NCBI GenBank assembly: GCA_028223895.1
Contig: JAOIVE010000001.1
Span: 1,270-65,269 of the forward strand
DNA length: 64,000 nt
Direction: 5' to 3'
From: Rickettsiales bacterium
Lineage (GTDB): Bacteria > Pseudomonadota > Alphaproteobacteria > Rickettsiales > UBA6187
The position numbers and the translations under genes are program-made. The notes below the pieces were generated by a model. That model ran no database searches. It had not been told where the DNA came from and saw nothing but the letters and a program-made list of their open reading frames with translations. This document shows, one piece after another, positions 2,087 to 64,000 of this stretch (the first letter of the stretch is position 1; each line of letters opens with the position of its first letter).

Positions 2087-2530
2087 TTAGGCGGCTTCTT
2101 TTTTCCTGTCGGCTGGTTTTCTAGCCGCATCGGAAAATGATTCTGACGCTTTTTTATTTATAATTTCATAAGCTTGAGTATTACATTGAACAGCATCTTC
2201 AATCATTTTACCTGTGTTTTTTACGGCGGAATCCACAGATGATTTTATAAAATCAGCATGTTTTACGGCTTTTTCTTCCATTTTATCCTTCGATAAAACT
2301 ACGTCGTTAACAAACCTTGATAGCTCTTCGGAGCTTTTTTGAAAAATTTCAGCCTGATGAGAAAATAAATTTTGCCATCCCTCTGTTATAACTCTTGTAA
2401 TGTCGTAGAATGCTTTGTTGCCTGAACGACTCGCAGCAACAAATTTATCCACACTGCAAGCTTCAGCAAAAGGATTATTCTCATTCATTGAACCCCATAT
2501 GGATGAAAACGGATTTTGGTTATTAGACAT
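2087..2530 (-). CDS. Phasin-family (PHA granule) protein
   Basis: Helical 147 aa with the phasin pattern (EGWQNLFSHQAEIF...AYEIINK); ends -EAA. Confidence 0.75.
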   Translation of the reverse strand: MSNNQNPFSSIWGSMNENNPFAEACSVDKFVAASRSGNKAFYDITRVITEGWQNLFSHQAEIFQKSSEELSRFVNDVVLSKDKMEEKAVKHADFIKSSVDSAVKNTGKMIEDAVQCNTQAYEIINKKASESFSDAARKPADRKKEAA

Positions 2531-2589
2531 AATGATTTCCTTATTTTTAAAAAGTTTGTTAATTGTTAATAGTTACGTAAAAATGAAGA

Positions 2590-2973
2590 TTATTTTTTCA
2601 TCTTATCCATCTTCATATCTTTCATTTTTTCTATGCTCATTTTTATCTGTTTCATCTGTTCCTGAGCCTTTGTGATACTTTGTTCCGCTGCCTGCATTTG
2701 TTTTTTCATTTCAGCATTTGTAGTATCATTTATCATATTTTTTATATCGTCATGCATGTTTTCCATAGATTCCATCATCTCTCCAACTTCTTCTTTCATC
2801 TGGTTCATATGATCGGACATAGGGCAGCTTTTATTGATCCATTTATGGCATTTATGATGATGGTACGTAGAATCTTTATGCCACCCCATTTTATCATGCT
2901 CATAATGCCCACATGAAGACAGTGGTAGGCATATTGCGGATGCCAAAAGCACTGTTTTTAAAAAAGTTTTCAT
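2590..2973 (-). CDS. His/Met-rich putative lipoprotein
   Basis: Signal peptide with LSSC lipobox, then HYEHDKMGWHKDSTYHHHKCH and a Met-rich coiled coil. Confidence 0.7.
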   Translation of the reverse strand: MKTFLKTVLLASAICLPLSSCGHYEHDKMGWHKDSTYHHHKCHKWINKSCPMSDHMNQMKEEVGEMMESMENMHDDIKNMINDTTNAEMKKQMQAAEQSITKAQEQMKQIKMSIEKMKDMKMDKMKK

Positions 2974-3063
2974 TTTTTTCTCCCCTTTTATATAAATATA
3001 TCCGCGTAGCACTGAAAAATGCGCTGAATGAAGGGAGTGTAGTTATAAGCGCCATTGTCTGAT

Positions 3064-3077
3064 TTGACGGGTGTCAA
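3064..3077. promoter_or_regulatory. FNR/FixK-type box TTGACGGGTGTCAA
   Basis: Palindrome extends over 3061-3080; upstream of the lipoprotein-phasin genes. Confidence 0.85.
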
Positions 3078-3148
3078 ATCGTGGAGTTTTTTGTTATGCA
3101 CCTTTCTTAATTATTCCATTTGTTTACGGAATAATGCTTGTGTAATCT

Positions 3149-3417
3149 TTACTCACTCTTCCATCCGCCACCTAACGCTTTATAAAGCGCCGTCAAATCT
3201 GTTGAAACGGTGGCGAGGCTTTTTGCCTGCGAAAGTTGAGATGCATAAAGCGAACGCTTCGCATCTAACACATCAAGAAACGCTACCAAGCCATTCCTAT
3301 AGCGACAAAAATTCCAGGCTGCTGCGTCATAATCAGCGCCGCAAAGGTAATGCCTATTATAATACCGATATATTTGGCGGTATCTCCGACAAGCATTTTA
3401 ATAGCAATGTAGTACAT
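3149..3417 (-). pseudogene. Deletion scar: N-terminus of a DevC-like ABC permease joined to the C-terminus of a NodT/OprM-type outer-membrane efflux protein
   Basis: MYYIAIKMLVGDTAKYIGIIIGITFAALIMTQQPGIF, then RYRNGLVAFLDV/DAKRSLY...LYKALGGGWKSE*. Confidence 0.75.
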
Positions 3418-3487
3418 AGCACGTTCCTCTGGCTTATCGTAAATAAGTAAAAGCTGTTGATAGGAGCATGTTTCGTTTTAGTGTGCT

Positions 3488-3501
3488 TTGATGCGTATCA
3501 A
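3488..3501. promoter_or_regulatory. FNR/FixK-type box TTGATGCGTATCAA
   Basis: Perfect TTGAT-N4-ATCAA, intergenic. Confidence 0.85.
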
Positions 3502-3550
3502 GTGCCAAAAGACCTTTTAGTCATTATATTTAGCGAACGCACAACCGTGC

Positions 3551-3564
3551 TTGATAGGAATCAA
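3551..3564. promoter_or_regulatory. FNR/FixK-type box TTGATAGGAATCAA
   Basis: Perfect TTGAT-N4-ATCAA upstream of 3718. Confidence 0.85.
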
Positions 3565-3717
3565 ATCCAGGTATTCGAATTTCTGTATTATTGGAAATTC
3601 TGAAGATAAATTCATATATCTAGAAATGCCTTTAAATTGAGAGCGCGTTTAATAAACTTTTTAACCAATTTTTATGCACATATTTAGTGCTTAAAAATTA
3701 ACTTTAGGAGACTTAAA

Positions 3718-6870: not shown

Positions 6871-6884
6871 TTGATGGATGTCAA
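6871..6884. promoter_or_regulatory. FNR/FixK-type box TTGATGGATGTCAA
   Basis: Between divergent genes 6792(-) and 6936(+). Confidence 0.85.
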
Positions 6885-14915: not shown

Positions 14916-14929
14916 TTGATATGTATCAA
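14916..14929. promoter_or_regulatory. FNR/FixK-type box TTGATATGTATCAA
   Basis: Perfect match between divergent genes. Confidence 0.85.
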
Positions 14930-18457: not shown

Positions 18458-18471
18458 TTGATCGCAGTCAA
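18458..18471. promoter_or_regulatory. FNR/FixK-type box TTGATCGCAGTCAA
   Basis: Position-equivalent to the box at 53817. Confidence 0.85.
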
Positions 18472-19274: not shown

Positions 19275-19316
19275 TGTATCGTGTACCGTGTATCGTGTAT
19301 CGTGTATCGTGTATCA
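19275..19316. repeat. Heptanucleotide tandem repeat (TGTATCG)x6, two units imperfect
   Basis: TGTATCG TGTACCG TGTATCG TGTATCG TGTATCG TGTATCA. Confidence 0.9.
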
Positions 19317-45881: not shown

Positions 45882-45890
45882 ATTGTTCTC

Positions 45891-48168: not shown

Positions 48169-48287
48169 GGTAATACGCTCATTTTATTCATAATTTTCCA
48201 TCTAATTGACTTGATTAAGAGCGTGATTGAAGCATTCATGGATATGTCCTCAAAGGGCAAAACATTAATCAAAAAAGGAACTTAACA

Positions 48288-48476
48288 ATGAATCAAGAAG
48301 CTAGATTTAACGCATTTATCAAACAGCTAACTCTATTATCCAAAGAGCATGGCATTGCCATACAAGCCATAGGAGGCGTGCATATTTTTGATAAACCCGA
48401 AGATGCCAAAAACATCGCTTATAGCCAAGATCACACAAGCGGCGACCTTGAATACACACTTAATGAGCAGGAGTAA
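48288..48476 (+). CDS. Hypothetical small phage protein
   Basis: AAGGA RBS; FIKQLTLLSKEHGIAI. Confidence 0.7.
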   Translation: MNQEARFNAFIKQLTLLSKEHGIAIQAIGGVHIFDKPEDAKNIAYSQDHTSGDLEYTLNEQE

Positions 48477-48481
48477 TTACC

Positions 48482-48801
48482 ATGAAAAATACCAACAAAA
48501 CTAATAAAACAAAATCACCCTCTAATGCTGCACAAGCAACATCCAGCAACAGCGTGCAACACGATGCAACACCAAGCAACGCACCTAAAAGCCGGAAACC
48601 AAACAATCGATTATCATTGGCTTGCTCACCCGCGAGGAGGGAGCAACACTACCAGAACTCATTGCCGCCACCGAATGGAAACCCCATTCGGTACGCGGCC
48701 ATCTTTCCAACCTGCGGAAAAAGCGAGGCATGCCGATTGAGACATTTACCAACACTGATGGCAATCGCGGTTATCGTCTGGTTGAAGCTCAAGCCTCCTG
48801 A
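48482..48801 (+). pseudogene. DUF3489-family protein, frameshifted in the A4 run at 48587-48590
   Basis: The second frame reads TKQSIIIGLLTREEGATLPELIAATEWKPHSVRGHLSNLRKKRG...YRL. Confidence 0.75.
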
Positions 48802-50021: not shown

Positions 50022-50064
50022 GTTGGTTCCTGTATGTTGATTAATTCTGTGCATCCGCCATTGC

Positions 50065-50230
50065 AAACGAAATGGCTCAAATACCCCATTTCGTTTGGAA
50101 ACGACCTAAGTATTTGTTTTATAGAGATTCATGCGCCGCCCAAACGAAACGAAATGCAAAGTTTTGTTTTATGCCTAGCCAAAAGCCGCGCCCTCGGCGT
50201 ACCCGTAGGGGCAACCCCACGGGAGTACCT
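50065..50230 (-). other. Putative cos packaging site (cosQ/cosN/cosB-like)
   Basis: Minus strand AGGTACT...TACG-GGTACGCCGAGGG-CGCGG, then three CATTTCGTTT repeats and an IHF-like site. Confidence 0.6.
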
Positions 50231-50260
50231 TTTTGAATCGGGCTGATTAGGTGCGGTGTG

Positions 50261-50845
50261 TTAGCGGCTTTTGAGTCGCTTGAGATAGAAGGCAAGGTTG
50301 CGCGCAAACTCAATGGGGAAGCGTTCCCGTATCGTTGTTTGCATCACCTGATCGTTCTCACGCTGCCGGAACAACTGCATGATGCCAGGACCATACAACA
50401 TCTTAAGCGGCTTACGCTTAGGGCCTTTGCGAATGTAAACCGTGGTCTTGCTTGACCCGCTGCGGCGCGGAGCGATGAAAGCTTTGCTGTAGGTGCGTGT
50501 CTTGCCATAGACCTTTGCTTTGACCAACCCACGCTTGCCACCCTTTTGCTGAGTGGGTTTCTTGCTGCCCACCACAAACTCAATGAGCTGTAACGCACGG
50601 TCACGCGCCACCAACGTTGCCCACAAACGTTTGAAGGTTGCTTTCTGTGTTTCAATGCGCCGCTTTACACCAGCCTGCCTGCTGTTCATTTGTGGTGCTA
50701 TGTGTCTGGCACTTGCCACTTTGGCACTCTCTGCCACACGATTAAGCGTCCGCACAGTTGCCTGCGGTGCCACCTGTTTTTCAAGCGTGCTTAAACTCCG
50801 CCTCAATTTCTTGAGATCGTGCTGTACTGTGATGTCAAATGCCAT
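50261..50845 (-). CDS. Minor tail protein Z-like
   Basis: Basic 194 aa; RTLNRVA, AFIA, LYGPGI. Confidence 0.75.
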   Translation of the reverse strand: MAFDITVQHDLKKLRRSLSTLEKQVAPQATVRTLNRVAESAKVASARHIAPQMNSRQAGVKRRIETQKATFKRLWATLVARDRALQLIEFVVGSKKPTQQKGGKRGLVKAKVYGKTRTYSKAFIAPRRSGSSKTTVYIRKGPKRKPLKMLYGPGIMQLFRQRENDQVMQTTIRERFPIEFARNLAFYLKRLKSR

Positions 50846-51073
50846 GGTAAAAATCCTAAAATGCTAGGCTGCAAGCCGTTGTTCACGCGCTCTGAATATG
50901 ATTGACCAGTCCTGCAAAAGGTCTATTAATTGGTTCGAATTATTTCGGACGATGTCCACCACGCTTCGCCCTTCGGGCTATGCGTGGCGCAGCCACGTGT
51001 AGAACGTTAGGCCGAAGCAGTGCCCGGCGTAGTTAGAGCAAATCGGAAACGTAGACGGGCTGGAGCAAATACA

Positions 51074-51316
51074 ATGTGGTATGTTTACATAATCAGAAGC
51101 ATTAATCACCCAGAGCAAGAATACACTGGCGCTAGCCAAGACCTCAAACAACGCATCAAAGAGCATAACTCCGGCAAATCAACCCACACAGCTAAGTTTG
51201 CACCTTGGGAATTAGTGTGGTATTGTGCCTTTCCAGATAAATACAAAGCCCTTGAATTTGAGAAATATTTGAAGTCGCATTCTGGTAGGGCCTTTGCAAA
51301 AAAGAGACTCTGCTAG
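51074..51316 (+). CDS. Small GIY-YIG nuclease-family protein
   Basis: MWYVYII...YTG..DLKQRIKEHNSG...FEKYLKSHSGRAF. Confidence 0.9.
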   Translation: MWYVYIIRSINHPEQEYTGASQDLKQRIKEHNSGKSTHTAKFAPWELVWYCAFPDKYKALEFEKYLKSHSGRAFAKKRLC

Positions 51317-51389
51317 CCGTTTAATGAGTTGATATTTGCCTTGTAAATCCTATAGTTGAGGAGTTCGACTCGGGTTTGGTATAAATAAA

Positions 51390-52196
51390 ATGGTTTTTTT
51401 GCAGCATAGCATTATAAGGCACACTACTATTGAAAAAATGCTGAAATATGCTGTTCAGTTGAATGCTCTCTTTATCCCTGCAAACTCGGTACAAAGTTCA
51501 CTATCACGTTATACTCATCCTCCTGTTATCCATAATCACAATGAAGAAATTTATACATGTAGCTTAAGAGGATCATCTATAGGCATATATTACCGAAAGC
51601 GATACCTACTTTTATGTACACGTCACCAGCTAAACGGATGCGATTATAAGGACGTAGGATTAATCGATAAAGATGGAGATAGCCTACATACCTCTGCTGG
51701 AAGTTGGCATTACCCCCCTAGTGTAAATGAAACTGATTTGAATGATTTAATTGTATTTGATTTCACTGCGCCATGTAACTATAGTCCATATATGAAGGAG
51801 TGGTTTTTCTCTCTTGAATGTTTTCCACCCAATTCACCGTCAAATGGGATAATTGCTTTTATTATTTCTGGATATCCTTCTCAAGAACAAAAGTATAACT
51901 TAGGAGAAGAAGAAAAACATTTAGGATTCCGAAGAGAATCAATTACCTGTTTATTAGGATCCTACGATGATCAAGTAAAAGGAGATCCTTCTATCTTATG
52001 TCTATCGTATGATCATAATTCTGATTTTAATCCAGATGGTATGAGTGGTGGCGCTGCCTTTGTTATACAGTTAGTAAATGGCAAACCACGTGCATATCTA
52101 GCCGGTATGGTAGTTCGAGCTGGAAATGGTAAATTCTATATACTGAGAATAGGTTTTATACAGAAGTTTATTGATCAATATTTAGATCGTCTTTAG
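51390..52196 (+). CDS. Trypsin-like serine protease moron
   Basis: LLCTRHQ (His), NDLIVF (Asp), DGMSGG (Ser); AT-rich. Confidence 0.6.
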   Translation: MVFLQHSIIRHTTIEKMLKYAVQLNALFIPANSVQSSLSRYTHPPVIHNHNEEIYTCSLRGSSIGIYYRKRYLLLCTRHQLNGCDYKDVGLIDKDGDSLHTSAGSWHYPPSVNETDLNDLIVFDFTAPCNYSPYMKEWFFSLECFPPNSPSNGIIAFIISGYPSQEQKYNLGEEEKHLGFRRESITCLLGSYDDQVKGDPSILCLSYDHNSDFNPDGMSGGAAFVIQLVNGKPRAYLAGMVVRAGNGKFYILRIGFIQKFIDQYLDRL

Positions 52197-52213
52197 TTGT
52201 TCCTCGTGTAAAA

Positions 52214-52414
52214 CTAAACTCCTTTCTCCAACACCACCCGCGCCATCAACTCAATCGTATTCACCAACTCTACCTTCTGCTCTTCCGTGAGATCAAAATT
52301 ATCAATATGAGGTCGATACGGCGCGAGAGGGTCATTTTCGCCCACCTCTGCCGATGATATTAATGAAGGTACGATTTTTTGTTCATCCTGTTTAGTCTTT
52401 TTTTGTTCGAACAC
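52214..52414 (-). CDS. Hypothetical small protein
   Basis: GTG start after GGAGG; YRPHIDNFDLTEEQKVEL. Confidence 0.45.
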   Translation of the reverse strand: MFEQKKTKQDEQKIVPSLISSAEVGENDPLAPYRPHIDNFDLTEEQKVELVNTIELMARVVLEKGV

Positions 52415-52415: not shown

Positions 52416-52646
52416 TTAACGCCCTCCCAGATTCGAATTCAGGCGTGTAACGATTTTAAGCAGCGCATACGTCCACATCTGCCATGCTTTGGTACGACCA
52501 CAGCCAAGCCGCCAGCAAATTGGCTTCCATGGAATTCGGGCGGCACGGAGCCAGACCAGCCTGCGTTCTTCCTCATCATCGAGCCAGAAAATCCAATGCA
52601 GCGTTTTTTCCATCCGGCTGATTGCGTCTGGCGTAGGTGGCCCCAT
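52416..52646 (-). pseudogene. C-terminal half of a phage DUF6362-like regulator
   Basis: PPTPDAISRMEKTLHW..WL..EERRLVWLRA..IPWKPIC; the N-terminus is replaced by phaC sequence. Confidence 0.75.
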
Positions 52647-53393
52647 GCCGCAGCGATAGCCAATAACTTACCACCCAAACAATATCCTACAGCATGTATC
52701 TTTTTGTCAGGCACGACATCCTGCGCCGCATCAATTGCTTCGAATAACCCGCGCTTGAGATAATCATTTAAACCAACATTCCGATATTCGGCGGTGGGGT
52801 TTTTCCACGAAATCATAAATACCGTATGCCCCTTGATCCACGAGATATTTCACTAGAGAATTATGGTCAGATAAATCAAGAATGTAATATTTCATAATCC
52901 ATGCCGGAACGATAAATACCGGCTCGGCATAAACATTATTAGTAATGGGTTTGTATTGAATCACCTCCAGCAACTCATTGCGGAAGATGATTTTTCCTTT
53001 TGTAATGGCAAGATTTTTTCCGACCTCGAATTGTTCTAAACCCACTGGCTTTTCATCATTTACCAAGCAAGACATATCCTCCAACAGGTTCATCCAACCG
53101 GTGACGAGGTTTATGCCCTTTTGCTCTTGCGTTGCCTTCGTCAGTAATGGATTGGTGGGCACGAAATTGGAAGGGGCGATGGCATCGATCATCTGGCGAA
53201 TGGTAAAGGATACGAGGTCAAGACTATGCGGATTCACCCCGCGCACATGGCTCGTCGTCTGCTTCCACCAATCCCGATAAAGTAGAAATGATTGCTGGTA
53301 GACATTATAGGGAAATTGGCACAAGCCCTCTGCCTTGAACCGACGATCTGTTGGGTCGGGATTCACCGGGCATGCTGGATTATCTTGTATCAT
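52647..53393 (-). pseudogene. phaC: Truncated, frameshifted PHA synthase
   Basis: DRRF, PSNFVPTNP, VPAWIMKYYILDL, +1 frameshift in C4 at 52829-52832, MISWKNP, GYCLGG, then an abrupt end. Confidence 0.9.
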
Positions 53394-53816: not shown

Positions 53817-53830
53817 TTGATACCTGTCAA
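53817..53830. promoter_or_regulatory. FNR/FixK-type box TTGATACCTGTCAA
   Basis: Equivalent to the box at 18458. Confidence 0.85.
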
Positions 53831-54600: not shown

Positions 54601-54614
54601 TTGATGGGTATCAA
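54601..54614. promoter_or_regulatory. FNR/FixK-type box TTGATGGGTATCAA just upstream of the regulator
   Basis: 14 bp before ATG 54629. Confidence 0.85.
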
Positions 54615-54628: not shown

Positions 54629-55426
54629 ATGGAAAAACTACTTGAAAAATCGGCATCACAAGGGGTGTTACACAAATTTATGCAAAGTAAAGAAGCTTAT
54701 AGAAGTTTTCTAAAACGAATGCCTTTATTTTGTGAGTTTTCTGAAACGTGCTTAAGTGAAGTTCTGGCCAATAGCCGCATTAAACACCATAAAAAAGGCG
54801 ACATCCTTTTCATGACTGGTGATAATGCTCAAAACTTTCGTATTATTGTCAATGGCTGGATAAAACTTTACCGAGAAACACGTGATGGGCATGAAGCAGT
54901 TGTTTCTGTTCTTACAAATAACGAGGTTTTTGGTAAAACCGCTATTTTGAGTAAAGGAACCTACGCCTATACGGCTGAAGCAATAACAGATACGGAGATG
55001 TTGATGATTCCTGCTGCGTTTATGTTAAAAATGGCCGAACATAAAGATGATTATGATCATTTTCTGGCAAAATTCCTTGAAGAGGAGCTAAATGACAGCA
55101 ATCAGCTTGGTTTGCATGCGGAGCACCTGGGGCAAATGACCTCAGCCGAAAGAGTCGGCTGCTTTCTTCTACGCTTATGTAGTATACAGAAAGAAGGAAG
55201 CATTACGTTTCAACTTCCATATGAAAAAGCTCTGGTTGCCGGGAAGCTGGGTATGACAGCAGAAACTTTTTCACGGTCGTTAAACCAATTGATCACTCGT
55301 GGGGTAGAAACAAAAAACTCCGTTGTCACCATTCATAATATAGAGCAACTGCGTACCCATATTTGTGAACACTGCTCCGCTACAACTCTTGAATGTCCAC
55401 TTGGTGCAGAAACAGAGACCATTTAA
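54629..55426 (+). CDS. Crp/Fnr-family regulator with C-terminal CxxC-x6-C, copy 2
   Basis: LGMTAETFSRSL HTH; CEHCSATTLEC. Confidence 0.92.
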   Translation: MEKLLEKSASQGVLHKFMQSKEAYRSFLKRMPLFCEFSETCLSEVLANSRIKHHKKGDILFMTGDNAQNFRIIVNGWIKLYRETRDGHEAVVSVLTNNEVFGKTAILSKGTYAYTAEAITDTEMLMIPAAFMLKMAEHKDDYDHFLAKFLEEELNDSNQLGLHAEHLGQMTSAERVGCFLLRLCSIQKEGSITFQLPYEKALVAGKLGMTAETFSRSLNQLITRGVETKNSVVTIHNIEQLRTHICEHCSATTLECPLGAETETI

Positions 55427-55803
55427 AATCCAAGCCTGCTTTTTAACCATTCAAGATCAAGTTTTTCAGGGTGTGCAATATATTCTTCGGGGTGTTTCAC
55501 TACTTGTTCAATATAACCCAGATTCACCCTCCATGCTTTTTTAACATCCGCCGGTTTGCCGTCCTGCACCAATTTGTTATTCTTGAATTTTAATGAAAAA
55601 GCACCTTTTGGTTTTTCATCATAAATGGCAAGATCAATTGGGCGATTTCCCATCATCGTTTCAGTGACGGATAAAATTTCTTTATAGGGAAATTCATCCT
55701 TATGCCGCTCAATAGCCTTGTTACAAATAGCCAGATAGAGTTCAAAAAGATTTTCTATGTCTTTTTGATCGTTCCCATTTTCTATTTTAATGCGTTTTTC
55801 CAT
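55423..55803 (-). CDS. Hypothetical 126-aa protein, copy 2
   Basis: Paralog of 20153-20533. Confidence 0.85.
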   Translation of the reverse strand: MEKRIKIENGNDQKDIENLFELYLAICNKAIERHKDEFPYKEILSVTETMMGNRPIDLAIYDEKPKGAFSLKFKNNKLVQDGKPADVKKAWRVNLGYIEQVVKHPEEYIAHPEKLDLEWLKSRLGF

Positions 55804-55814
55804 TATATTTCTCC

Positions 55815-56264
55815 TTACACATGCACAATTTTATTCAAATGCTCTTGAATCTGCTCAGGTGTAAGCTCCATCAAGTCCTTATCCAATTCCAGGGCGATTA
55901 TATCCTTAACTTCCTTACTCAGCGCTTTACGCAAAAATCCCAGCACTTTTGGCGGTGCGGCCACTACAAGTCGATTATATTCTTTTTCTTCAAGCGCCTT
56001 ATCCAGATGATCGGCTACTTCATGCATGAATGCCTTGCGTGACAAAGTCCGGTCACTTGTATGCGGTTCAATAATGTGTCTGGCTCCTCCGACGCTATCA
56101 TATGTTCTTCCCAATTCACGCCGCCCTGTAGGTTCATCGGTACGGATCAGTTTTGCCGTAAGAGTATGGTTTAGTTCTCCCAAGTGATGATCTTCATTCC
56201 TTGTATAAAAACGGGCATGTTTGCTATCAATTACAGCTATCCATGTTATTATTTTGCGTGTCAT
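55815..56264 (-). CDS. Host-attachment / baeRF12 family protein, copy 2
   Basis: GRTYDSVGGARH, LVVAAPPKVLGFLR, ELDKDL. Confidence 0.85.
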   Translation of the reverse strand: MTRKIITWIAVIDSKHARFYTRNEDHHLGELNHTLTAKLIRTDEPTGRRELGRTYDSVGGARHIIEPHTSDRTLSRKAFMHEVADHLDKALEEKEYNRLVVAAPPKVLGFLRKALSKEVKDIIALELDKDLMELTPEQIQEHLNKIVHV

Positions 56265-56278
56265 ATGTTTTCCAATAA

Positions 56279-56584
56279 CTATATCGGCGCAGCGTCGGTA
56301 AAACTATTACGCTGGTGTTTAATGCAGCGTCCGATAGTGAGTGTTCCGTTCTGGACAGTAAGCATTACGGCATCACTTCCATTGTGTGGGAATTCAAATG
56401 ACATACGCACAGCTCCACCACGTTGTAATAGTTTACTATGTTGCTCTAATATGGTAGCGCTGAGTTCATGGCAGAGCGTTTTAAAATGCTCTGCCTCTTC
56501 ATCCGATAATGCGTCTGCTTTTAAAGCAGGAGAAACCTCAGATAATTTCTCCCACTTTAATGCCGTGGATTGTTGGTATGCCAT
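56279..56584 (-). CDS. Hypothetical protein
   Basis: GGAGGT RBS; lies within the operon. Confidence 0.7.
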   Translation of the reverse strand: MAYQQSTALKWEKLSEVSPALKADALSDEEAEHFKTLCHELSATILEQHSKLLQRGGAVRMSFEFPHNGSDAVMLTVQNGTLTIGRCIKHQRNSFTDAAPI

Positions 56585-56593
56585 GATTACCTC

Positions 56594-56926
56594 CTATGCT
56601 GCCTTGCTATGATCGCCAGTAAACCAATCTTCAACACCGCCTTCATAGGCATACACATTGGCAAAACCGGCCTTTTCCAGTTTTTTAGCTGCCTTGATAG
56701 AGGCATCACATTTAGACCCGGCGCAATACACCACTACTTTACGTTTTTTTGAGCCAACAGTTTTTTCCACAGTTTCCTCAAAATTACCTTGATCATGAGG
56801 AATATTAATAGAAGTCTCTATATGCTTTTTATTAAAATATTCCTGTGAAAGTACATTAATAAGCACAAAATCCTCATGCTTCTTATCATGCATTTGCTTG
56901 ATTTCTTTTTTAGTGATCGTTTTCAT
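56594..56926 (-). CDS. Rhodanese-like protein
   Basis: HIETSINIP, VVVYCAGSKC, YEGGVEDW; ends -KAA. Confidence 0.9.
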   Translation of the reverse strand: MKTITKKEIKQMHDKKHEDFVLINVLSQEYFNKKHIETSINIPHDQGNFEETVEKTVGSKKRKVVVYCAGSKCDASIKAAKKLEKAGFANVYAYEGGVEDWFTGDHSKAA

Positions 56927-56937
56927 TTTTATTCTCC

Positions 56938-57672
56938 TTATGCTATTTTTATTTTTTTATCTTTGGAATCGGATTCACGGTTAGGTTCTTTAGCAGATGA
57001 AACTTCCCTTCCTGCGGTTTTTGACCATTCAATTGCCTCCTGTTTTTTCTTCTCGCTTTTTGAAGATTGGGCACCGCTTTGGGCTTCAATCTTTAATTTG
57101 CGGGATTTGCTTTTTGCTTCCTGCTTTTTCGGTATTTCCACCGTAAGTACGTTCTGCTCAAATCTGGCACTGGCTTTTTCCACATCCGCTTCTTCAGGCA
57201 ATGCAATGGTACGGCTAAAAGCACCAAAATGACATTCACGGCGAAGATAGCTATCACCTTCATCTTTTTCTTCCGAGCAGCGTGTGCCGCTTATGGTAAT
57301 AGCATTGTCGGAAATGGAAACCTCCAGATCTTTAGCACTTAAACCGGGAACATCTGCCCTGACTTTAAATTTATTACCATTTTCTATGATATTGACATAA
57401 GGCTCGGTCGTTGTGCCTGTCACCCAGGGTGTAGACATTTGGCGGTTATTGAACAATTCGCTAAATATCCGGTGCGTGTTTCGTTGAAACGCAGAGAATA
57501 TATCTTCTTCGGCATCCCAAACTGAAGGAGCCATAAAAGATGGTCTGGAAAAGTTTGAAAACGCCTCTCTTGCGGAACGGTTCAGTTCCCGCTGGAGAGA
57601 AAACATCGGTTGCCACCATAAGGCATCCTTCGGATTTGCTGCACTTTTTAGTATGTTAAGTTGCTGAGTCAT
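56938..57672 (-). CDS. Hsp20 family protein with long extensions
   Basis: ADVPG, ITISG, FSRTIALP, NVLTVEIPK. Confidence 0.9.
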   Translation of the reverse strand: MTQQLNILKSAANPKDALWWQPMFSLQRELNRSAREAFSNFSRPSFMAPSVWDAEEDIFSAFQRNTHRIFSELFNNRQMSTPWVTGTTTEPYVNIIENGNKFKVRADVPGLSAKDLEVSISDNAITISGTRCSEEKDEGDSYLRRECHFGAFSRTIALPEEADVEKASARFEQNVLTVEIPKKQEAKSKSRKLKIEAQSGAQSSKSEKKKQEAIEWSKTAGREVSSAKEPNRESDSKDKKIKIA

Positions 57673-57711
57673 TTTGGTTTCCTTTAATTTAGGTTTTAGT
57701 TGTAACTTCAT

Positions 57712-58215
57712 TTAAGCAGCCTCTTTTATTTCCACTTTACGCGAAGATTTTACCGCTTCTTCTTTTTTAGGTATTTCCACCCAGAGCACGCCTTTCTTGA
57801 AACTAGCCTTTGCTTTATCGGCATTAGCCGTTTCAGGCAAAGAAATGGTACGTTGGTATGAACCATAGAAGCGCTCACGGCGGACGTAATTATCCTCTTT
57901 GTCTTCTTTGGATGCTTTCTTTTCCGCTTTTATGGTTAAATAATTATCATTAATGGTAACATCCACATCCTCCTGTTTTAATCCCGGCAGTTCAGCCTCG
58001 ATTTTAAAACTCTTATCGTTTTCAATAACGTCAACGGGAAGTGTGAGTAAATTATTGCCAGCCCATAAAGAAGAAGTTGGCAATTCATTCTGAAAGCCAT
58101 TGAAAAAATCATCAAAAACCTGATTTATTTCTTGATTCAGAGAGGTAAAAGGACTCCTTTCTTTTCTTACGTTGATATTTCCAAATCTGTTCCAGGGTGT
58201 AATATTAAATGCCAT
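57712..58215 (-). CDS. Hsp20 family protein (paralog of 21082-21585)
   Basis: AELPG, RERFYGSYQRTISLP, GVLWVEIPK; ends -EAA. Confidence 0.95.
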   Translation of the reverse strand: MAFNITPWNRFGNINVRKERSPFTSLNQEINQVFDDFFNGFQNELPTSSLWAGNNLLTLPVDVIENDKSFKIEAELPGLKQEDVDVTINDNYLTIKAEKKASKEDKEDNYVRRERFYGSYQRTISLPETANADKAKASFKKGVLWVEIPKKEEAVKSSRKVEIKEAA

Positions 58216-58440: not shown

Positions 58441-58506
58441 TTGATAGGCATCAACCGGTTTTAAGAATTTATTTTTTAGAAAAATTATGCGCTTGATAGC
58501 TGTCAA
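58441..58506. promoter_or_regulatory. Two FNR/FixK-type boxes (58441-58454 TTGATAGGCATCAA; 58493-58506 TTGATAGCTGTCAA)
   Basis: Between divergent hsp20 and peptide/CBS genes. Confidence 0.85.
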
Positions 58507-60870: not shown

Positions 60871-60884
60871 TTGATAGCGGTCAA
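60871..60884. promoter_or_regulatory. FNR/FixK-type box TTGATAGCGGTCAA
   Basis: Extended palindrome CCAA-box-TTGG upstream of the lipoprotein. Confidence 0.85.
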
Positions 60885-62097: not shown

Positions 62098-62104
62098 ATT
62101 TTAC

Positions 62105-62668
62105 TTATATAGCTATATCATGAATATGTACATCATGGGCGGAATGTTTTTTTAGAATTTTAAGTGCCCATTTTTCACGTATAACACCATCCGTTTGCAC
62201 CCATAGCAATAGGCCTCCGTGTTCAATTTGTTCCTTGATATAATCGGCATGGTGCTGCCCCAGCATCCAGGCATATAGCCCGCCAAATGAAGCCCCAACA
62301 GCTCCTGCGGCTATAGCAGCGGTAATAGCTGCCAATAATGTGCCACCTGATGCAACTACCATTGCCGTTGCAGTAGTGGCCACAACATAAAGCGGGAAAC
62401 CAGTCAAAGCGCCTTCGCCTTCACCGATGGATTCTAGTGGCACGAAAATAGTACGCGGGGCTTTAGGATCGTCTTCCTCTTTTTCTACGTGCTTGTAAAT
62501 ATGACCAAATTTTTTCTTTATCGTTTTAGCATCGGCTAATACGCTAAAATGTCTGCGTTCAAACCCATAGGTTTGTAAGTCATCAAGTGCGGCTTGCAAG
62601 CTATCTGCATCATTGAATACGGCAACTGCCTCACGGACGGTTTCTAGTTTTTTCTTTGACTGTTTCAT
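62105..62668 (-). CDS. General-stress Gly/Ala-zipper membrane protein
   Basis: REAVAVF...LQAALDDL..GF; GGLLLWV. Confidence 0.75.
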   Translation of the reverse strand: MKQSKKKLETVREAVAVFNDADSLQAALDDLQTYGFERRHFSVLADAKTIKKKFGHIYKHVEKEEDDPKAPRTIFVPLESIGEGEGALTGFPLYVVATTATAMVVASGGTLLAAITAAIAAGAVGASFGGLYAWMLGQHHADYIKEQIEHGGLLLWVQTDGVIREKWALKILKKHSAHDVHIHDIAI

Positions 62669-63135
62669 GCTGCATGACTCACTTTTGCGTGAGCCTTATT
62701 CAATGTAGCACCTAACATCCAATGATTTTTCTCGTGAGCCGCAATGCGCTGTGTGAGTAAATCCACCGTTACCACATCTTTTACCTTATCGGCTTCTTCC
62801 AAGGCATGGTGCATGGTTTTTATGATTTTTTCTTGATCGGCATATAAGTCCTTTATCATTTCTGCTGCATCCGCCGCCTGCATTGCTTCTTCAATATGGG
62901 TTAATTTTGCAAATGCCGAAAAACTTCCCGGAGCATGCTTCCCAAGTGCACGGATACGTTCTGCAAGAGAGTCCACAGGCTCGATCAGTTCACGATATTG
63001 CCCTTCCAGCATGATGTGTAACTGATGGAAATCCGTTCCCATAATATTCCAATGGTAATTCTGGGTTTTAAGGTATAAGGCGTACGTATCAGCTAGTGCT
63101 GATTCCAATGCCTGAACAAGATTTTTAGCGGACAT
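62665..63135 (-). CDS. dps: Dps-family protein, copy 2
   Basis: LYLKTQNYHWN, DSLAERIRALG, HEKNHWML; ends -HAA. Confidence 0.95.
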   Translation of the reverse strand: MSAKNLVQALESALADTYALYLKTQNYHWNIMGTDFHQLHIMLEGQYRELIEPVDSLAERIRALGKHAPGSFSAFAKLTHIEEAMQAADAAEMIKDLYADQEKIIKTMHHALEEADKVKDVVTVDLLTQRIAAHEKNHWMLGATLNKAHAKVSHAA

Positions 63136-63194
63136 AATTAAAACTCCTTTTTATGGTTGAACCAGCAATAAACACCAGCCGTCTTCAAATATAC

Positions 63195-63208
63195 TTGATA
63201 GCTGTCAA
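63195..63208. promoter_or_regulatory. FNR/FixK-type box TTGATAGCTGTCAA
   Basis: Identical to the box at 58493; between divergent genes. Confidence 0.85.
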
Positions 63209-63306
63209 GTACCTTTGAAGATAGTACAAATAGAGTAATGTTTTTTACGTTAACGGTATCTACAATCGCCATGCGGAGAATTTTGCAGAATAGGGAAATA
63301 AGGGTT

Positions 63307-63663
63307 ATGGATAGTAAAAATAATTATACGAAAGCACTAAAGAAGCTAAAAACAATCCAGAAACGTTATAGTCATTTTCTAAACGATAACAATGACCTGC
63401 TTACCATGTTTCGTGCACTGGAGGACAACCTGATCAATGCATTGAATGGCCATGCAGAAGCGTTGGATAAAATCTCAAGGCATGAACATAATATTGAGGA
63501 ATTGCTCTCCAATATTGATGAAATCGCTCAGGATGCACAGCGCATGGAGGATGAAAGCCCTGTGTCTGCCGATGATATCTGCATGGAATATTACCAATTA
63601 AAGCAGGAAATAATGGATTTTGTACAGCAATATTTGATAAATTCCTCATCCAAGGTGGAGTAG
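63307..63663 (+). CDS. Hypothetical helical protein
   Basis: MDSKNNYTKALKK...; downstream of the box at 63195. Confidence 0.65.
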   Translation: MDSKNNYTKALKKLKTIQKRYSHFLNDNNDLLTMFRALEDNLINALNGHAEALDKISRHEHNIEELLSNIDEIAQDAQRMEDESPVSADDICMEYYQLKQEIMDFVQQYLINSSSKVE

Positions 63664-63670
63664 TGCCGTT

Positions 63671-63877
63671 ATGAAGTTCAAAATAATTACAGGTATAACA
63701 CTTTTATTGCTGGTGGTAATATTCACATTACAAAATGCGATGGTGGTAGATGTGCGCTTCTTTCTTTGGACGCTTTCCATTTCCAGGGCATTGCTGATTT
63801 TTATCGTTCTATCTATTGGCATTCTGATGGGATGGCTTATCAGAGTGCTGTTTGATGCGCATATGAATGATGAGTAG
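63671..63877 (+). CDS. LapA-family small membrane protein
   Basis: VIFTLQN..VVDVRFFLW..S.ALLI. Confidence 0.8.
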   Translation: MKFKIITGITLLLLVVIFTLQNAMVVDVRFFLWTLSISRALLIFIVLSIGILMGWLIRVLFDAHMNDE

Positions 63878-63880
63878 CCT

Positions 63881-64000
63881 GTGGAGTTTGCCTTTGATAT
63901 CCAGATAATAGCCAGCTTCTTGTCACTGACCGCGCTGGAGATTGTGCTTGGCATTGACAATGTGGTTTTTATTGCGCTTATCATCAATCACCTTCCTGCA
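63881..64000 (+). CDS. TerC-family protein, N-terminal part (runs off the window)
   Basis: ASFLSLTALEIVLGIDNVVFIAL is identical to the N-terminal segment of 35728-36438. Confidence 0.85.
   Translation, partial: MEFAFDIQIIASFLSLTALEIVLGIDNVVFIALIINHLPA

What the first reader, a model, noticed from the sequence alone, without database searches (positions are those of the whole stretch)
2087..64000. Self-contained FNR/FixK-box regulon spread over two islands flanking a prophage
Seen: 16 intergenic TTGAY-N4-RTCAA palindromes (3064, 3488, 3551, 6871, 14916, 18458, 19344, 21702, 21736, 23117, 53817, 54601, 58441, 58493, 60871, 63195). Nearly every divergent promoter region in the islands has one, and I noticed none in the phage intergenic DNA (manual scan). 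A rough composition estimate predicts fewer than one per 64 kb by chance. Known: this is the FNR/FixK consensus, read by Crp/Fnr proteins with an E-x-x-S-R recognition helix, and both island regulators have ETFSR. Inference: each island brings its own regulator and forms a portable anoxia/stress-survival programme of roughly 50 genes.
Basis: partly seen in the sequence, partly recalled or inferred. Interest (0 to 1): 0.85.

Follow-up and report, generated by a model that had tools for sequence, protein, structure and literature searches.

The report
Clustered FNR-box stress-survival regulon
About 45 stress-protection genes in an uncultured bacterium sit behind 16 perfect copies of the classic low-oxygen (FNR/FixK) control site and next to two regulators of their own, a known kind of survival programme with an unusual, undescribed type of regulator.

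Summary
All 16 TTGAY-N4-RTCAA boxes are at the stated places (shuffles give a mean of 0.43). They make up half of the 33 boxes in the 1.45-Mb, 68%-complete assembly. That is about 40 times the density elsewhere. None lies in the phage DNA. A TANNNT -10 hexamer sits exactly 22 nt after the box in 11 of 32 orientations, against about 1 at other offsets. This puts the box centre at -41.5, the geometry of activator-dependent class II promoters.

Each island carries a Crp/Fnr regulator with an ETFSR recognition helix and a box 13-14 nt before its own ATG. Both islands share a paralogous core: regulator, 126-aa unknown protein, baeRF12/Host_attach, Hsp20, CBS, Dps.

The closest known systems are the Burkholderia lxa low-oxygen locus and the alphaproteobacterial FixK regulon.

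- The regulators have neither the FNR N-terminal cysteines nor FixK/FtrB model scores. They carry four conserved cysteines: C174 and a C-terminal CxxCx6C.
- A conserved unknown 126-aa partner gene accompanies this regulator clade.
- The regulon extends to contig C27, and a third ETFSR regulator exists on C39.
- No mobility genes bound the islands.
- Oxygen as the signal is inferred, not shown.

The parts
3064..3077 (.). FNR-type box; leftward promoter for 2590-3012 and phasin 2087-2530
   Evidence: Exact match. TACACT lies 22 nt after the box on the - strand, and the box is 51 nt from the ATG at 3012.
3488..3564 (.). Twin boxes (3488-3501, 3551-3564). Rightward target is the Cys/His-rich 105-aa gene 3718-4035. 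The leftward TATAAT faces only short ORF fragments.
   Evidence: -10 hexamers at offsets 21-23 (+) and TATAAT at 22 (-). Short ORFs at 3149-3417.
6871..6884 (.). Box of a bidirectional promoter. Rightward: MprF-AcvB/VirJ-PqiA-MlaD (7072-12362). Leftward: YflT, 218-aa protein, HtpX M48, YceI (6792-4096).
   Evidence: TATGAT (+) and TTTAAT (-) at offset 22. Pfam.
14916..14929 (.). Box of a bidirectional promoter. Rightward: 180-aa secreted coiled-coil protein and P-type cation ATPase (15005-18076). Leftward: YfdX, 221-aa, 117-aa and MauE-like proteins (14851-12371).
   Evidence: TAGTCT (+) and TAAAGT (-) at offset 22. Pfam.
18458..18471 (.). Box of a bidirectional promoter. Leftward: 109-aa hydrophilic protein 18080-18409 (paralog at 53447-53758). 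Rightward: uncertain ORF 18567-18998.
   Evidence: TATAAT (-) and TATTAT (+) at offset 22. Paralogy 54%.
19275..19315 (.). TGTATCG x5.9 tandem repeat just upstream of regulator 1's box
   Evidence: sequence.
19344..19357 (.). Box that ends 13 nt before the ATG of regulator 1, an autoregulatory (probably repressing) position
19371..20156 (+). Regulator 1: Crp/Fnr family, 261 aa, ETFSR helix, C174 plus C-terminal C242-x2-C245-x6-C252, no N-terminal Cys cluster
   Evidence: Pfam cNMP_binding and HTH_Crp_2. Sequence. Cys conservation in 29 homologs. PDB and NCBIfam scores.
20153..21585 (-). Operon: Hsp20 (21082-21585), baeRF12/Host_attach (20545-21027), 126-aa partner of unknown family (20153-20533)
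   Evidence: Pfam. No family for the 126-aa protein. Paralogs in island 2 at 65-69%.
21702..21749 (.). Twin boxes (21702-21715, 21736-21749) between the Hsp20 operon (-) and the CBS gene 21846-22280 (+)
   Evidence: TATAAT at offset 27 on the - strand of 21702. Pfam.
22310..22870 (-). Flavodoxin-like FMN reductase; nearest box (23117) is 246 nt upstream, so control is uncertain
   Evidence: Pfam; distances.
23117..23130 (.). Box for Dps/ferritin-like gene 23191-23655 (+)
   Evidence: TAGGAT at offset 22. Pfam Ferritin.
23757..52400 (-). Phage-derived DNA, GC 0.47, with no exact box. It holds lysozyme, a J-like tail protein, DUF2793, BR0599/Gp84_N, DUF2460, tape measure, head-protease, portal, TerL, TerS-like, ParB-methyltransferase and GIY-YIG. 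A 3.4-kb cargo at 34083-37355 holds HTH+Fic, ExoD, TerC and TauE.
   Evidence: No integrase family in the 24 ORFs scanned, no tRNA, no bracketing repeat.
52631..53381 (-). phaC remnant. It covers residues 132-380 of the intact 632-aa PhaC on C27, has a frameshift near 52830, and is truncated at the phage junction.
   Evidence: tblastn; Pfam PhaC_N.
53817..53830 (.). Box of a bidirectional promoter. Leftward: 103-aa hydrophilic protein 53447-53758. Rightward: small basic K/Q-rich ORF within 53862-54107.
   Evidence: TATATT at offset 22 (+). ORFs.
54601..54614 (.). Box that ends 14 nt before the ATG of regulator 2
54629..55426 (+). Regulator 2: Crp/Fnr, 265 aa, 63-66% identical to regulator 1, with the same ETFSR and the same four cysteines
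55423..58215 (-). Operon: Hsp20, long Hsp20, rhodanese, 101-aa protein, baeRF12/Host_attach, 126-aa partner
   Evidence: Pfam; paralogy.
58441..58506 (.). Twin boxes (58441-58454, 58493-58506) between the Hsp20 operon (-) and the CBS / membrane protein / DUF6629 / SpoIIAA-like operon 58833-60860 (+). A 49-aa very basic ORF (58651-58800) lies in between.
60871..60884 (.). Box for the 81-aa lipoprotein-like gene 60952-61197 (+)
63195..63208 (.). Box of a bidirectional promoter. Leftward: Dps 62665-63135, 187-aa protein, YkuD/LysM L,D-transpeptidase 61198-62097. Rightward: 141-aa gene 63238-63663.
   Evidence: TAGAGT (+) and TTTATT (-) at offset 22. Pfam.
1..2086 (.). Phage-like early-gene DNA (GC 0.46-0.50) to the left of island 1: a 257-aa protein matching a 'Bacteriophage sp.' record, and a Cro/CI-type HTH. 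A RepO-like N-terminus lies just before the window.

Best explanation
The window holds a dense regulon of activator-dependent (class II) promoters. Each promoter carries a perfect TTGAT-N4-ATCAA box centred near -41.5.

The boxes are read by Crp/Fnr-family dimers encoded in the same DNA (19371-20156 and 54629-55426). The ETFSR recognition helix of these proteins is the FNR/FixK type. When active, they switch on about 19-20 transcription units (about 45 genes) in three groups:
- Protein, nucleoid and iron protection: three Hsp20, two Dps, HtpX, two baeRF12/Host_attach, two CBS-pair proteins, and small hydrophilic and basic proteins.
- Envelope remodelling: MprF-AcvB, PqiAB, YceI, L,D-transpeptidase, P-type ATPase.
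- Storage-polymer functions: phasin here; PhaB, PhaC, AckA and Pta on contig C27.

Each regulator also binds a box 13-14 nt before its own start codon, a position that should limit its own transcription.

Shown by sequence: the boxes, their excess and confinement, the -10 spacing, the regulators and their helix, the paralogous modules, and the gene families.

Inferred:
- The island regulators, rather than only the third paralog on C39, bind these boxes.
- They activate transcription.
- The signal is low oxygen or redox. I propose it is sensed through four conserved cysteines (C174 plus the C-terminal C-x2-C-x6-C) that could hold an Fe-S cluster, by analogy with the C-terminal cluster of Bacillus Fnr.
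For: Box excess:
- 16 exact boxes against 0.43 expected.
- 16 of the genome's 33 boxes lie in 4.4% of its bases.
- 21 of the 24 intergenic or start-proximal boxes lie on C1 or C27.
- One-mismatch sites are not enriched in the islands (3), so these sites are selected perfect sites and not a compositional effect.

Promoter geometry:
- TANNNT sits at offset 22 in 11 of 32 orientations, against a mean of 1.05 at other offsets; binomial 3e-9.
- The same peak appears in 97 independent boxes of related loci: 13, 19, 8 and 11 of 194 at offsets 21-24, against about 3.5.
- Full sigma-70 promoters are at chance level, 17 against 19.3, as expected for activator-dependent promoters.

Regulators:
- cNMP_binding plus HTH_Crp_2 domains, and ETFSR, in both.
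- In 29 homologs C174 is invariant, and C242, C245 and C252 are at least 90% conserved.
- In metagenome loci, 24 of 25 regulators with the C-terminal CxxC[ST] motif also have the GCF cysteine.

Published parallels (passages read only):
- The B. cenocepacia lxa locus has 50 low-oxygen-induced genes and 17 intergenic TGA-N6-TCA motifs. It includes an alpha-crystallin, PHA synthase, acetoacetyl-CoA reductase, acetate kinase and Pta (PMC3721108).
- Bradyrhizobium genes and proteins listed as microoxia-induced include host attachment proteins, CBS proteins, Hsp20, phaC2 and phasin (PMC6515984).
- The predicted alphaproteobacterial FixK core regulon includes Hsp20 and a CBS protein (PMC2908626).
- Bacillus Fnr binds a [4Fe-4S] cluster through three C-terminal cysteines (PMC3520743).
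Against: - There is no expression or binding data: no sequencing run was listed, and the organism is uncultured.
- The regulators have no FNR N-terminal Cys cluster. They score far below the curated cut-offs of FNR (41.7 against 228), FixK (47.3 against 300) and FtrB (94.7 against 211). Their sensing chemistry is therefore unknown.
- C174 is also conserved in relatives that lack the C-terminal cysteines (7 of 31 GCF regulators), so it need not be a cluster ligand.
- The C-terminal spacing C-x2-C-x6-C differs from the Bacillus C-x2-C-x4-C.
- Classical FNR/FixK targets have no box with one mismatch or fewer upstream: cytochrome bd, COX1-type oxidases, Usp.
- None of the 48 island ORFs scanned is a Usp.
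- A third intact ETFSR paralog on C39 could read the same boxes.
- Several gene-ward promoters have weak or displaced -10 hexamers: 21736+, 58493+, 58441-, 60871+.
- The assembly is 68% complete.
Confidence: 0.7

Rival explanations
1. The architecture is the same, but the signal is not oxygen. The regulators would respond to NO, reactive oxygen or thiol oxidation, a metabolite bound in the cNMP-like barrel, or simply to their own abundance under an upstream stationary-phase or host cue. The programme would then be a general dormancy or transmission-stage regulon and not an anoxia regulon.
For: - The nearest solved relatives are an uncharacterised 'cyclic nucleotide-binding protein' (3FX3/3H3Z, 7.5e-33) and the NO-responsive DNR (1.9e-13). 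FixK2 (9e-8) and FNR (1e-6) rank lower.
- No oxidase, hemN or Usp gene carries a box.
- The content is dominated by chaperones, Dps, envelope and hydrophilic proteins.
Against: - Every characterised regulon with this box and this gene content that I read about responds to low oxygen.
- Four conserved cysteines fit an O2-labile cluster.
Confidence: 0.3
2. The boxes are mainly served by another Crp/Fnr protein of the cell: the C39 paralog, or one in the missing 32% of the genome. The two island regulators would be redundant, modulatory or competing (repressing) paralogs, so the islands would not be self-contained.
For: - C39:25-789 encodes an intact 254-aa paralog with the same ETFSR helix and a different C-terminal Cys pattern.
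- PMC2908626 (passages) states that FNR, FixK and DNR proteins read virtually identical sites and can share targets.
- The regulator boxes sit at repressing positions on their own genes.
Against: - Regulator and targets are co-located, and co-duplicated as a module at 46-69% identity.
- The regulator/126-aa-gene pair with a box upstream recurs in 17 distant loci.
- 21 of 24 non-coding boxes lie on the contigs that carry these regulators.
Confidence: 0.15
3. Contig C1 is chimeric or mis-binned. The islands and phage DNA (GC 0.39-0.51) would belong to a different organism from the 0.365-GC genome, so 'half of the genome's boxes' would compare two organisms.
For: - The islands' GC is 0.393 and 0.407 and the phage region's is 0.469, against a genome mean of 0.367 (sd 0.019).
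- The other box-rich contigs, C27 and C41, also have high GC.
- This is a metagenome-assembled genome.
Against: - The last 20 kb of C1 has native GC (0.364) on the same contig.
- The closest regulator and partner orthologs (64-66%) are in G009, a genome of the same family with GC about 0.38.
- Contamination is estimated at 0.02.
- The excess within the window itself against shuffles does not depend on binning.
Confidence: 0.08
4. The boxes are chance matches or copies of a repeated element.
For: Two pairs of boxes have identical 14-mers (3064 = 23117; 58493 = 63195).
Against: - 0 of 100 shuffles reach 16.
- The flanks of the identical boxes share no similarity.
- 16 of 16 lie outside credible coding sequence.
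- The -10 hexamer is phased at offset 22.
Confidence: 0.01

Closest known systems
Burkholderia cenocepacia lxa (low-oxygen-activated) locus (Sass et al. 2013, PMC3721108; passages read)
   Same: - A contiguous cluster of about 50 genes with 17 intergenic Anr/Fnr-like inverted repeats (TGA-N6-TCA) and a regulator gene of its own.
- It lies between genomic islands.
- Its content includes an alpha-crystallin/Hsp20, PHA synthase, acetoacetyl-CoA reductase, acetate kinase and phosphate acetyl/butyryl transferase. Here the last four lie on C27 behind boxes.
   Different: - lxa is rich in universal stress proteins. Here 0 of 48 island ORFs scanned is a Usp, and the genome's two Usp genes have no box.
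- Here the core module is present twice, with two regulators.
- The regulator subfamily may differ; I could not compare it with BCAM0287.
- Induction by low oxygen is measured for lxa and only inferred here.
FixK/FixK2 regulon of Alphaproteobacteria (PMC2908626 and PMC6515984; passages read)
   Same: - Same box.
- Same class of targets: Hsp20, CBS-domain proteins, host-attachment (baeRF12) proteins, phaC, phasin, MCE/Mla-type proteins.
- A Host_attach gene next to a CBS gene (bll4645/blr4646), as at 20545-22280 here.
- Negative autoregulation of the regulator is described for FixK2 in the abstract of PMC9104804, seen only in a search listing.
   Different: - FixK proteins are described as not sensing O2 themselves and as being driven by FixLJ. 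No FixLJ-type pair lies in the window, and these regulators carry four conserved cysteines.
- They score below the NCBIfam FixK and FtrB cut-offs.
- No cbb3 oxidase genes (fixNOQP) belong to this regulon.
Bacillus subtilis / B. cereus Fnr (PMC3520743; passages read)
   Same: A Crp/Fnr protein without N-terminal cysteines, whose [4Fe-4S] cluster is held by three cysteines in a C-terminal extension.
   Different: - The spacing is C-x2-C-x4-C with Asp141 as the fourth ligand in Bacillus. Here it is C-x2-C-x6-C plus a conserved fourth cysteine (C174).
- No Bacillus Fnr model appeared among the NCBIfam hits.
- Fe-S binding is untested here.
E. coli / Aliivibrio FNR and Pseudomonas Anr
   Same: Same box consensus, the E-x-x-S-R helix, and class II promoters with the site at -41.5 (the -41.5 rule is recalled textbook knowledge).
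   Different: - The defining N-terminal Cys cluster is absent.
- Sequence match to solved FNR is only 1e-6.
- 41.7 bits against the 228-bit cut-off.

Membership tests
Crp/Fnr superfamily | N-terminal cNMP-binding-like barrel plus C-terminal Crp-type HTH | tested here: met
   PF00027 and PF13545 are above cut-off in both regulators.
FNR/FixK/DNR DNA-specificity group | E-x-x-S-R recognition helix that reads TTGAT-N4-ATCAA | tested here: met
   ETFSR is present in both regulators. Binding itself was not tested.
FNR proper (O2-sensing [4Fe-4S]) | Four conserved cysteines including the N-terminal cluster (as stated in PMC2908626) | tested here: not met
   Regulator 1 has no cysteine before C174. 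The two N-terminal cysteines of regulator 2 are not conserved.
FNR proper | Score at or above the NCBIfam PRK11161 cut-off | tested here: not met
   41.7 bits against 228.
FixK / FtrB | Score at or above the NCBIfam cut-offs (FixK Caulobacter 300; FtrB 211 and 300) | tested here: not met
   47.3, 94.7 and 60.8 bits. These are narrow equivalog models.
FixK | Expression driven by FixLJ; the protein itself is not an O2 sensor | not tested
   No two-component genes were found among the window ORFs scanned. The genome was not searched for FixLJ.
Bacillus-type Fnr | Three C-terminal cysteines (C-x2-C-x4-C) ligating a [4Fe-4S] cluster | tested here: inconclusive
   A C-terminal C-x2-C-x6-C is conserved in at least 90% of 29 homologs. 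The spacing differs. Cluster binding cannot be tested with these tools.
Class II FNR-dependent promoter | Site centred about 41.5 nt upstream of the start, i.e. -10 hexamer beginning 22-23 nt after the box | tested here: met
   TANNNT at offset 22 in 11 of 32 orientations against a mean of 1.05. Transcription starts were not measured.
lxa-type low-oxygen locus | Gene cluster with the motif in most intergenic promoter regions | tested here: met
   9 of 9 divergent intergenic regions carry a box.
lxa-type low-oxygen locus | Multiple universal stress proteins among the members | tested here: not met
   0 of 48 island ORFs scanned has PF00582. The genome's two Usp genes are on C12 and C67 without a box.
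lxa-type low-oxygen locus | Induction by low oxygen; needed for anoxic survival | not testable with these tools
   No run was listed.
Mobile genomic island | Integrase or transposase, tRNA or direct-repeat borders | tested here: not met
   No tRNA in the window. No bracketing repeat. No recombinase family in any of the 76 window ORFs scanned.
Mobile genomic island | Deviating composition and patchy distribution among relatives | tested here: inconclusive
   GC is 1.4-2.1 sd above the mean. The 126-aa partner is found in 2 of 41 related genomes and a regulator at 46% identity or more in 3 of 41. Regulator 2 groups with proteins from other sources and not with regulator 1. Loss in other lineages explains this as well as gain does.
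Prophage | Complete head, tail, packaging and lysis gene set | tested here: met
Prophage | Integrase and att sites | tested here: not met
   None in the 24 phage-region ORFs scanned. No repeat brackets the region. It may be defective or GTA-like.

The most novel reading that the evidence does not exclude
The two regulators belong to an undescribed clade of Crp/Fnr sensors in Gram-negative bacteria. This clade would hold a redox- or O2-labile cluster through C174 plus a C-terminal C-x2-C-x5/6-C. It would work together with a conserved 126-aa protein of no known family or fold, whose gene lies convergent to the regulator gene and is itself box-controlled.

In this genome the whole survival programme would travel as cargo of temperate-phage or GTA-like DNA. 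Island 1 is bracketed by phage early-type and late-type DNA of the same GC. TerC/ExoD cargo sits inside the tail-gene cluster.
Probability: 0.12. Interest if true: 0.75.

Novelty: new variant of a known kind. Interest (0 to 1): 0.45.

Why it matters
The regulon architecture is a clean natural example of a known idea: a compact survival programme wired by one perfect site. Here the sites are unusually pure, with 16 perfect sites and almost no degenerate ones. They are almost confined to accessory DNA and leave out the respiratory genes that normally define FNR/FixK regulons. That makes it a simple system for asking what the Hsp20 / baeRF12 / CBS / Dps core does.

The regulator clade is the more useful lead. 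It has four conserved cysteines, three of them C-terminal, and occurs in loci with GC from 0.38 to 0.61. It is linked to an unknown 126-aa protein in 17 of 31 loci. Together these give a testable candidate for a second, C-terminal route to O2 or redox sensing among Crp/Fnr proteins outside Bacillus.

Tried and rejected
I could therefore not name the organism.
- Hints of an alphaproteobacterial affinity are leads only: FtrB as best NCBIfam hit, RcGTA-type tail genes, a TerL nearest to Roseobacter phages, and the AcvB, ExoD and Host_attach families.
- A search of the genome for DotI/IcmL found nothing. The control genomes found nothing either, so the result is uninformative.
- The first protein-atlas search failed. 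The repeat gave only generic Crp/Fnr clusters, mostly Pseudomonadota.
- Rfam gave no family at gathering score in the window.
- The look-up of sequencing runs: none was listed, and no RNA holder was listed.
- Complex prediction of regulator plus the 126-aa partner gave no verdict (score 0.01 against a mark of 0.32). This is no evidence either way.
- Foldseek of the partner model (pLDDT 80) against the PDB found nothing below E 0.4. The top rows were SCP2-like with TM about 0.3, which I do not accept as an assignment.
- Pfam on all 16 partner sequences gave nothing significant.
- Literature searches for a proteobacterial Crp/Fnr with C-terminal cysteines found only the Bacillus work and an unrelated RirA passage. 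So 'undescribed' rests on these two searches of the held library only.
Table S5 of PMC3721108 (lxa motif sites) and Table S1 of PMC2908626 (subfamily members) might show whether this regulator clade was already catalogued.
- I rejected the idea that the two modules are a recent in-genome duplication. Identities are 46-69%, and regulator 2 groups with P0004, P0007 and P0013 at 94/97 support, excluding regulator 1 (all 29 rows kept, midpoint root only).
- I rejected a recent duplication or misassembly of the phage cargo. The TerC and ExoD copies are 69.5% and 40% identical.
- The boxes on C14 and C21 lie beside ATP-grasp/methyltransferase, MATCAP and ABC-ATPase genes. I leave them as possible chance sites.
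- By eye, from the lists: the four C27 boxes read T at position 6, and none of the 16 window boxes does on the + strand. I could not quantify this (see below).

Full report
**The observation**

Dinucleotide-preserving shuffles give a mean of 0.43 and a maximum of 3, and 0 of 100 reach 16. No exact box lies between 23131 and 53816, the phage DNA.

On the mechanical ORF map 14 of 16 boxes are intergenic. The other two sit in doubtful 5' extensions. Box 3064 lies in a TTG-started ORF with no family. Box 19344 lies in a GTG extension of the regulator, whose real start is ATG 19371 behind GGAG. All 9 divergent intergenic regions of the two islands carry at least one box.

The window is bases 1270-65269 of contig C1 of a 1,448,576-base assembly. 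The assembly has 93 contigs and is 68% complete.

- The whole assembly holds 33 exact boxes: 16 in the window, one 1.2 kb beyond it (C1:66523), four on the 13-kb contig C27, and 12 on nine other contigs.
- The two islands (about 33 kb) therefore have about 0.48 boxes per kb. The genome outside C1 has 0.012 per kb.
- Of the 17 boxes outside the window, 10 lie inside ORFs of 90 aa or more and 7 are intergenic. One of the 10, C27:4242, is only 21 nt into the listed ORF.
- So 21 of the 24 non-coding or start-proximal boxes are on C1 or C27.
- One-mismatch sites are not enriched in the islands: 3 there, 3 in the phage region, and 314 in the other 1.35 Mb. The island sites are selected perfect sites, not a by-product of composition.
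- Forty related genomes carry 2-34 exact boxes each.

**Promoter geometry**

I counted TANNNT hexamers at each offset downstream of each box, in both orientations. Eleven of 32 start exactly 22 nt after the box, against a mean of 1.05 at other offsets. The binomial probability is 3e-9.

With the hexamer at -12 to -7, the box centre is at -41.5. This is the class II arrangement of FNR-dependent promoters; that rule is recalled knowledge.

Four boxes (6871, 14916, 18458, 63195) have a hexamer at that distance on both sides and lie between divergent operons. The same peak appears in 97 independent boxes from related loci: 13, 19, 8 and 11 of 194 orientations at offsets 21-24, against about 3.5 elsewhere. 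Complete sigma-70 promoters are at chance level in 17900-23800, 17 against 19.3. That fits promoters that depend on an activator.

**The regulators**

Genes 19371-20156 and 54629-55426 encode Crp/Fnr proteins with cNMP_binding and HTH_Crp_2 domains. They are 63-66% identical, and both carry ETFSR in the recognition helix.

Each has a box ending 13-14 nt before its ATG. There is no room there for a promoter downstream of the box, so the position should repress and not activate.

What they are not:
- Regulator 1 has no cysteine before C174. The two N-terminal cysteines of regulator 2 are not conserved.
- NCBIfam scores are 41.7 bits against 228 for Fnr, 47.3 against 300 for FixK, and 94.7 against 211 for FtrB, the best hit.
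- The nearest solved structures are an uncharacterised Crp-family protein (3FX3/3H3Z, 7.5e-33) and then DNR, NtcA, FixK2 and FNR.

What they have is four conserved cysteines. In an alignment of 29 homologs C174 is invariant, and C242, C245 and C252 (C-x2-C-x6-C) are at least 90% conserved.

A wider clade in metagenome loci has C-x2-C-S-x2-F/Y-P-C. In that set 24 of 25 regulators with the C-terminal motif also have the 'GCF' cysteine. Bacillus Fnr holds its [4Fe-4S] cluster with three C-terminal cysteines and an aspartate (PMC3520743, passages). That precedent is the basis of my proposal that these proteins sense O2 or redox through a C-terminal cluster. It is inference only. C174 is also kept in 7 relatives that lack the C-terminal cysteines.

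**Gene content**

Of 48 island ORFs scanned with Pfam, 30 matched a family.

Island 1:
- phasin, YceI, HtpX-type M48 protease, YflT
- MprF with AcvB/VirJ, PqiA and an MlaD/PqiB protein
- MauE-like protein, YfdX, a P-type cation ATPase
- the regulator; Hsp20, baeRF12/Host_attach and a 126-aa protein
- a CBS pair, a flavodoxin-like FMN reductase, Dps

Island 2:
- a phaC remnant, the second regulator
- two Hsp20, rhodanese, baeRF12 and the 126-aa protein
- a CBS pair, DUF6629, a SpoIIAA-like protein
- a YkuD/LysM L,D-transpeptidase, Dps

Many of the unassigned proteins are small and strongly hydrophilic or basic.

A core module is present in both islands. It consists of a hydrophilic protein of about 105 aa, the regulator, the 126-aa protein, baeRF12, Hsp20, CBS and Dps, at 46-69% identity between the copies.

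From the ORF map I count about 19-20 box-headed transcription units and about 45 genes. This is my inference from strand and spacing.

**Beyond the window**

- Contig C27 (GC 0.42, four boxes) carries a broken fourth regulator, an acetoacetyl-CoA-reductase-type SDR, an intact PhaC, a SpoIIAA-like protein, OmpA, acetate kinase, a Pta-type enzyme and LpxR.
- C41 carries further CBS and MauE paralogs.
- C39 carries a third intact regulator with ETFSR and another C-terminal cysteine pattern.
- The genome's cytochrome bd, COX1-type oxidases and two Usp genes have no box with one mismatch or fewer upstream.

So the regulon is nearly confined to this accessory gene pool. It lacks the respiratory targets typical of FNR/FixK. 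It is not limited to the window, and the regulator set is not limited to the two islands.

**The 126-aa protein**

It has no Pfam or NCBIfam family.

Among 62 distinct regulator loci with enough downstream sequence, 17 have a homolog of it convergent within 120 nt of the regulator's stop. All 17 are among the 31 regulators with the GCF motif, and none is among the 31 without it. In 12 of the 17, an exact box lies 37-112 nt upstream of the partner gene. These loci range from GC 0.40 to 0.61.

Among 41 related genomes it is found only in G000 and G009. An AlphaFold model built from 16 sequences has pLDDT 80 and no significant PDB neighbour.

**The phage DNA**

Region 23757-52400 (GC 0.47) encodes:
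- lysozyme, a 1249-aa tail protein, DUF2793, BR0599/Gp84_N and DUF2460
- a tape measure, a head-protease fusion and portal
- TerL (55% identical to Roseobacter phages of 29-33 kb) and a Nu1-like protein
- a ParB-methyltransferase and a GIY-YIG protein

None of the 24 ORFs scanned is an integrase. The window has no tRNA, and no direct repeat brackets the region.

A 3.4-kb insert (34083-37355) holds HTH+Fic, ExoD, TerC and TauE. Older paralogs of TerC and ExoD (69.5% and 40%) lie just after island 2.

At the right junction phaC is a remnant. It covers residues 132-380 of the C27 protein, with a frameshift near 52830. To the left of island 1, the first 3.3 kb of C1 (GC 0.46-0.50) is also phage-like: a RepO-like N-terminus, a protein matching a 'Bacteriophage sp.' record, and a Cro/CI-type HTH.

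Island 1 is thus bracketed by phage-type DNA on both sides. I cannot tell whether it lies inside one rearranged prophage or between two remnants.

**Origin**

- The islands' GC (0.393 and 0.407) is 1.4-2.1 sd above the genome mean of 0.367.
- A close regulator (64%) occurs in 1 of 11 genomes of the same family, and a 46% one in 1 of 29 further genomes of the order.
- In G009 the regulator, the partner and a CBS gene are spread over 24 kb with four boxes.
- In a maximum-likelihood tree of 29 regulators, regulators 1 and 2 fall in one clade of five (99/94). Regulator 2 groups with three proteins from other sources (94/97) to the exclusion of regulator 1.

This fits an accessory, exchangeable module. 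It does not show mobility.

**Comparison with known systems**

The closest analogue is the B. cenocepacia lxa locus. It has 50 low-oxygen-induced genes and 17 intergenic TGA-N6-TCA motifs. It contains an alpha-crystallin, PHA synthase, acetoacetyl-CoA reductase, acetate kinase, Pta and candidate Crp/Fnr regulators (PMC3721108, passages).

The gene families also match the alphaproteobacterial FixK world:
- Bradyrhizobium genes and proteins listed as microoxia-induced include host attachment proteins next to CBS proteins, Hsp20, phaC2 and phasin (PMC6515984, table passages).
- The predicted FixK core regulon includes Hsp20 and a CBS protein (PMC2908626, passages).

What differs here:
- the regulator subfamily and its conserved partner;
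- the duplication of the core;
- the purity and confinement of the sites;
- the absence of Usp and oxidase targets;
- the embedding in phage DNA.

**Verdict**

I rate it a new variant of a known kind, of moderate interest. The regulator clade and its unknown partner are the most promising leads.

Noticed in passing
window 20153-20533 (-) and 55423-55803 (-); L032, L033, L039, L041 and others: A 126-aa protein of no known family is a conserved convergent neighbour of this Crp/Fnr clade: 17 of 31 loci with the GCF motif against 0 of 31 without. It usually has its own box upstream. One cysteine (in '(I/V)CN') is invariant, and some members carry a C-x2-C-x-C insert.
   Followed up: partly
window 34083-37355: A non-phage cargo block sits inside the tail-gene cluster between DUF2460 and the tape measure gene: a Cro/CI-type HTH plus a Fic/DOC protein (a possible toxin-antitoxin pair), ExoD, TerC and TauE. 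Diverged TerC/ExoD paralogs lie at C1:65150-66467.
   Followed up: partly
window 26822-33993: The tail module carries DUF2793, Phage_BR0599/Gp84_N and DUF2460. As far as I recall, these families are typical of RcGTA-like gene transfer agents of Alphaproteobacteria. With no integrase found, the region may be a defective or GTA-like element.
   Followed up: no
window 1-2086 and C1:1-1269 (L030): High-GC (0.46-0.50) phage-like early genes (RepO-like N-terminus, HTH, a protein matching a 'Bacteriophage sp.' record) lie left of island 1. Island 1 is therefore bracketed by phage-type DNA on both sides.
   Followed up: partly
window 19275-19315: A TGTATCG heptamer is repeated 5.9 times just upstream of regulator 1's box. 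It lies in the leader of a leftward TATAAT promoter (offset 20 from the box). It could be a slipped-strand switch or a binding array.
   Followed up: no
window 53862-54107 and 58651-58800: Small, very basic K/Q/P/S-rich ORFs (pI above 10, GRAVY -1.3 and -1.8) lie directly downstream of boxes. They are candidates for nucleoid-binding or hydrophilin-like proteins.
   Followed up: no
window 3149-3417 (-): A perfect box with TATAAT at offset 22 (3551, - strand) faces only two short ORFs. One ends in '...ALGGGW', which I recall as the usual C-terminus of outer-membrane efflux lipoproteins. This may be the remnant of a deleted efflux operon.
   Followed up: no
L027 (contig C27) 92, 4242, 10282, 12902: By eye, all four C27 boxes read TTGA(T/C)TG..AATCAA, with T at position 6. 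None of the 16 window boxes has T there on the + strand. This may be a sub-class of site for another paralog.
   Followed up: no
L029 (contig C39) 25-789: A third intact Crp/Fnr paralog has ETFSR and a different, longer C-terminal cysteine pattern (five cysteines in the last 35 residues). A near-identical tail is seen in metagenome locus L040.
   Followed up: partly
G016:C185, G020:C87, G039:C1: In three related genomes a Host_attach/baeRF12 gene lies within about 500 nt of a Crp/Fnr gene. The regulator-baeRF12 link therefore recurs with more distant regulators.
   Followed up: no
C1:70000-77500 (beyond the window): A very low-GC stretch (0.285-0.325) holds a 927-aa ORF without a Pfam family. 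It follows a split TonB-dependent receptor (Plug and barrel in separate ORFs).
   Followed up: no
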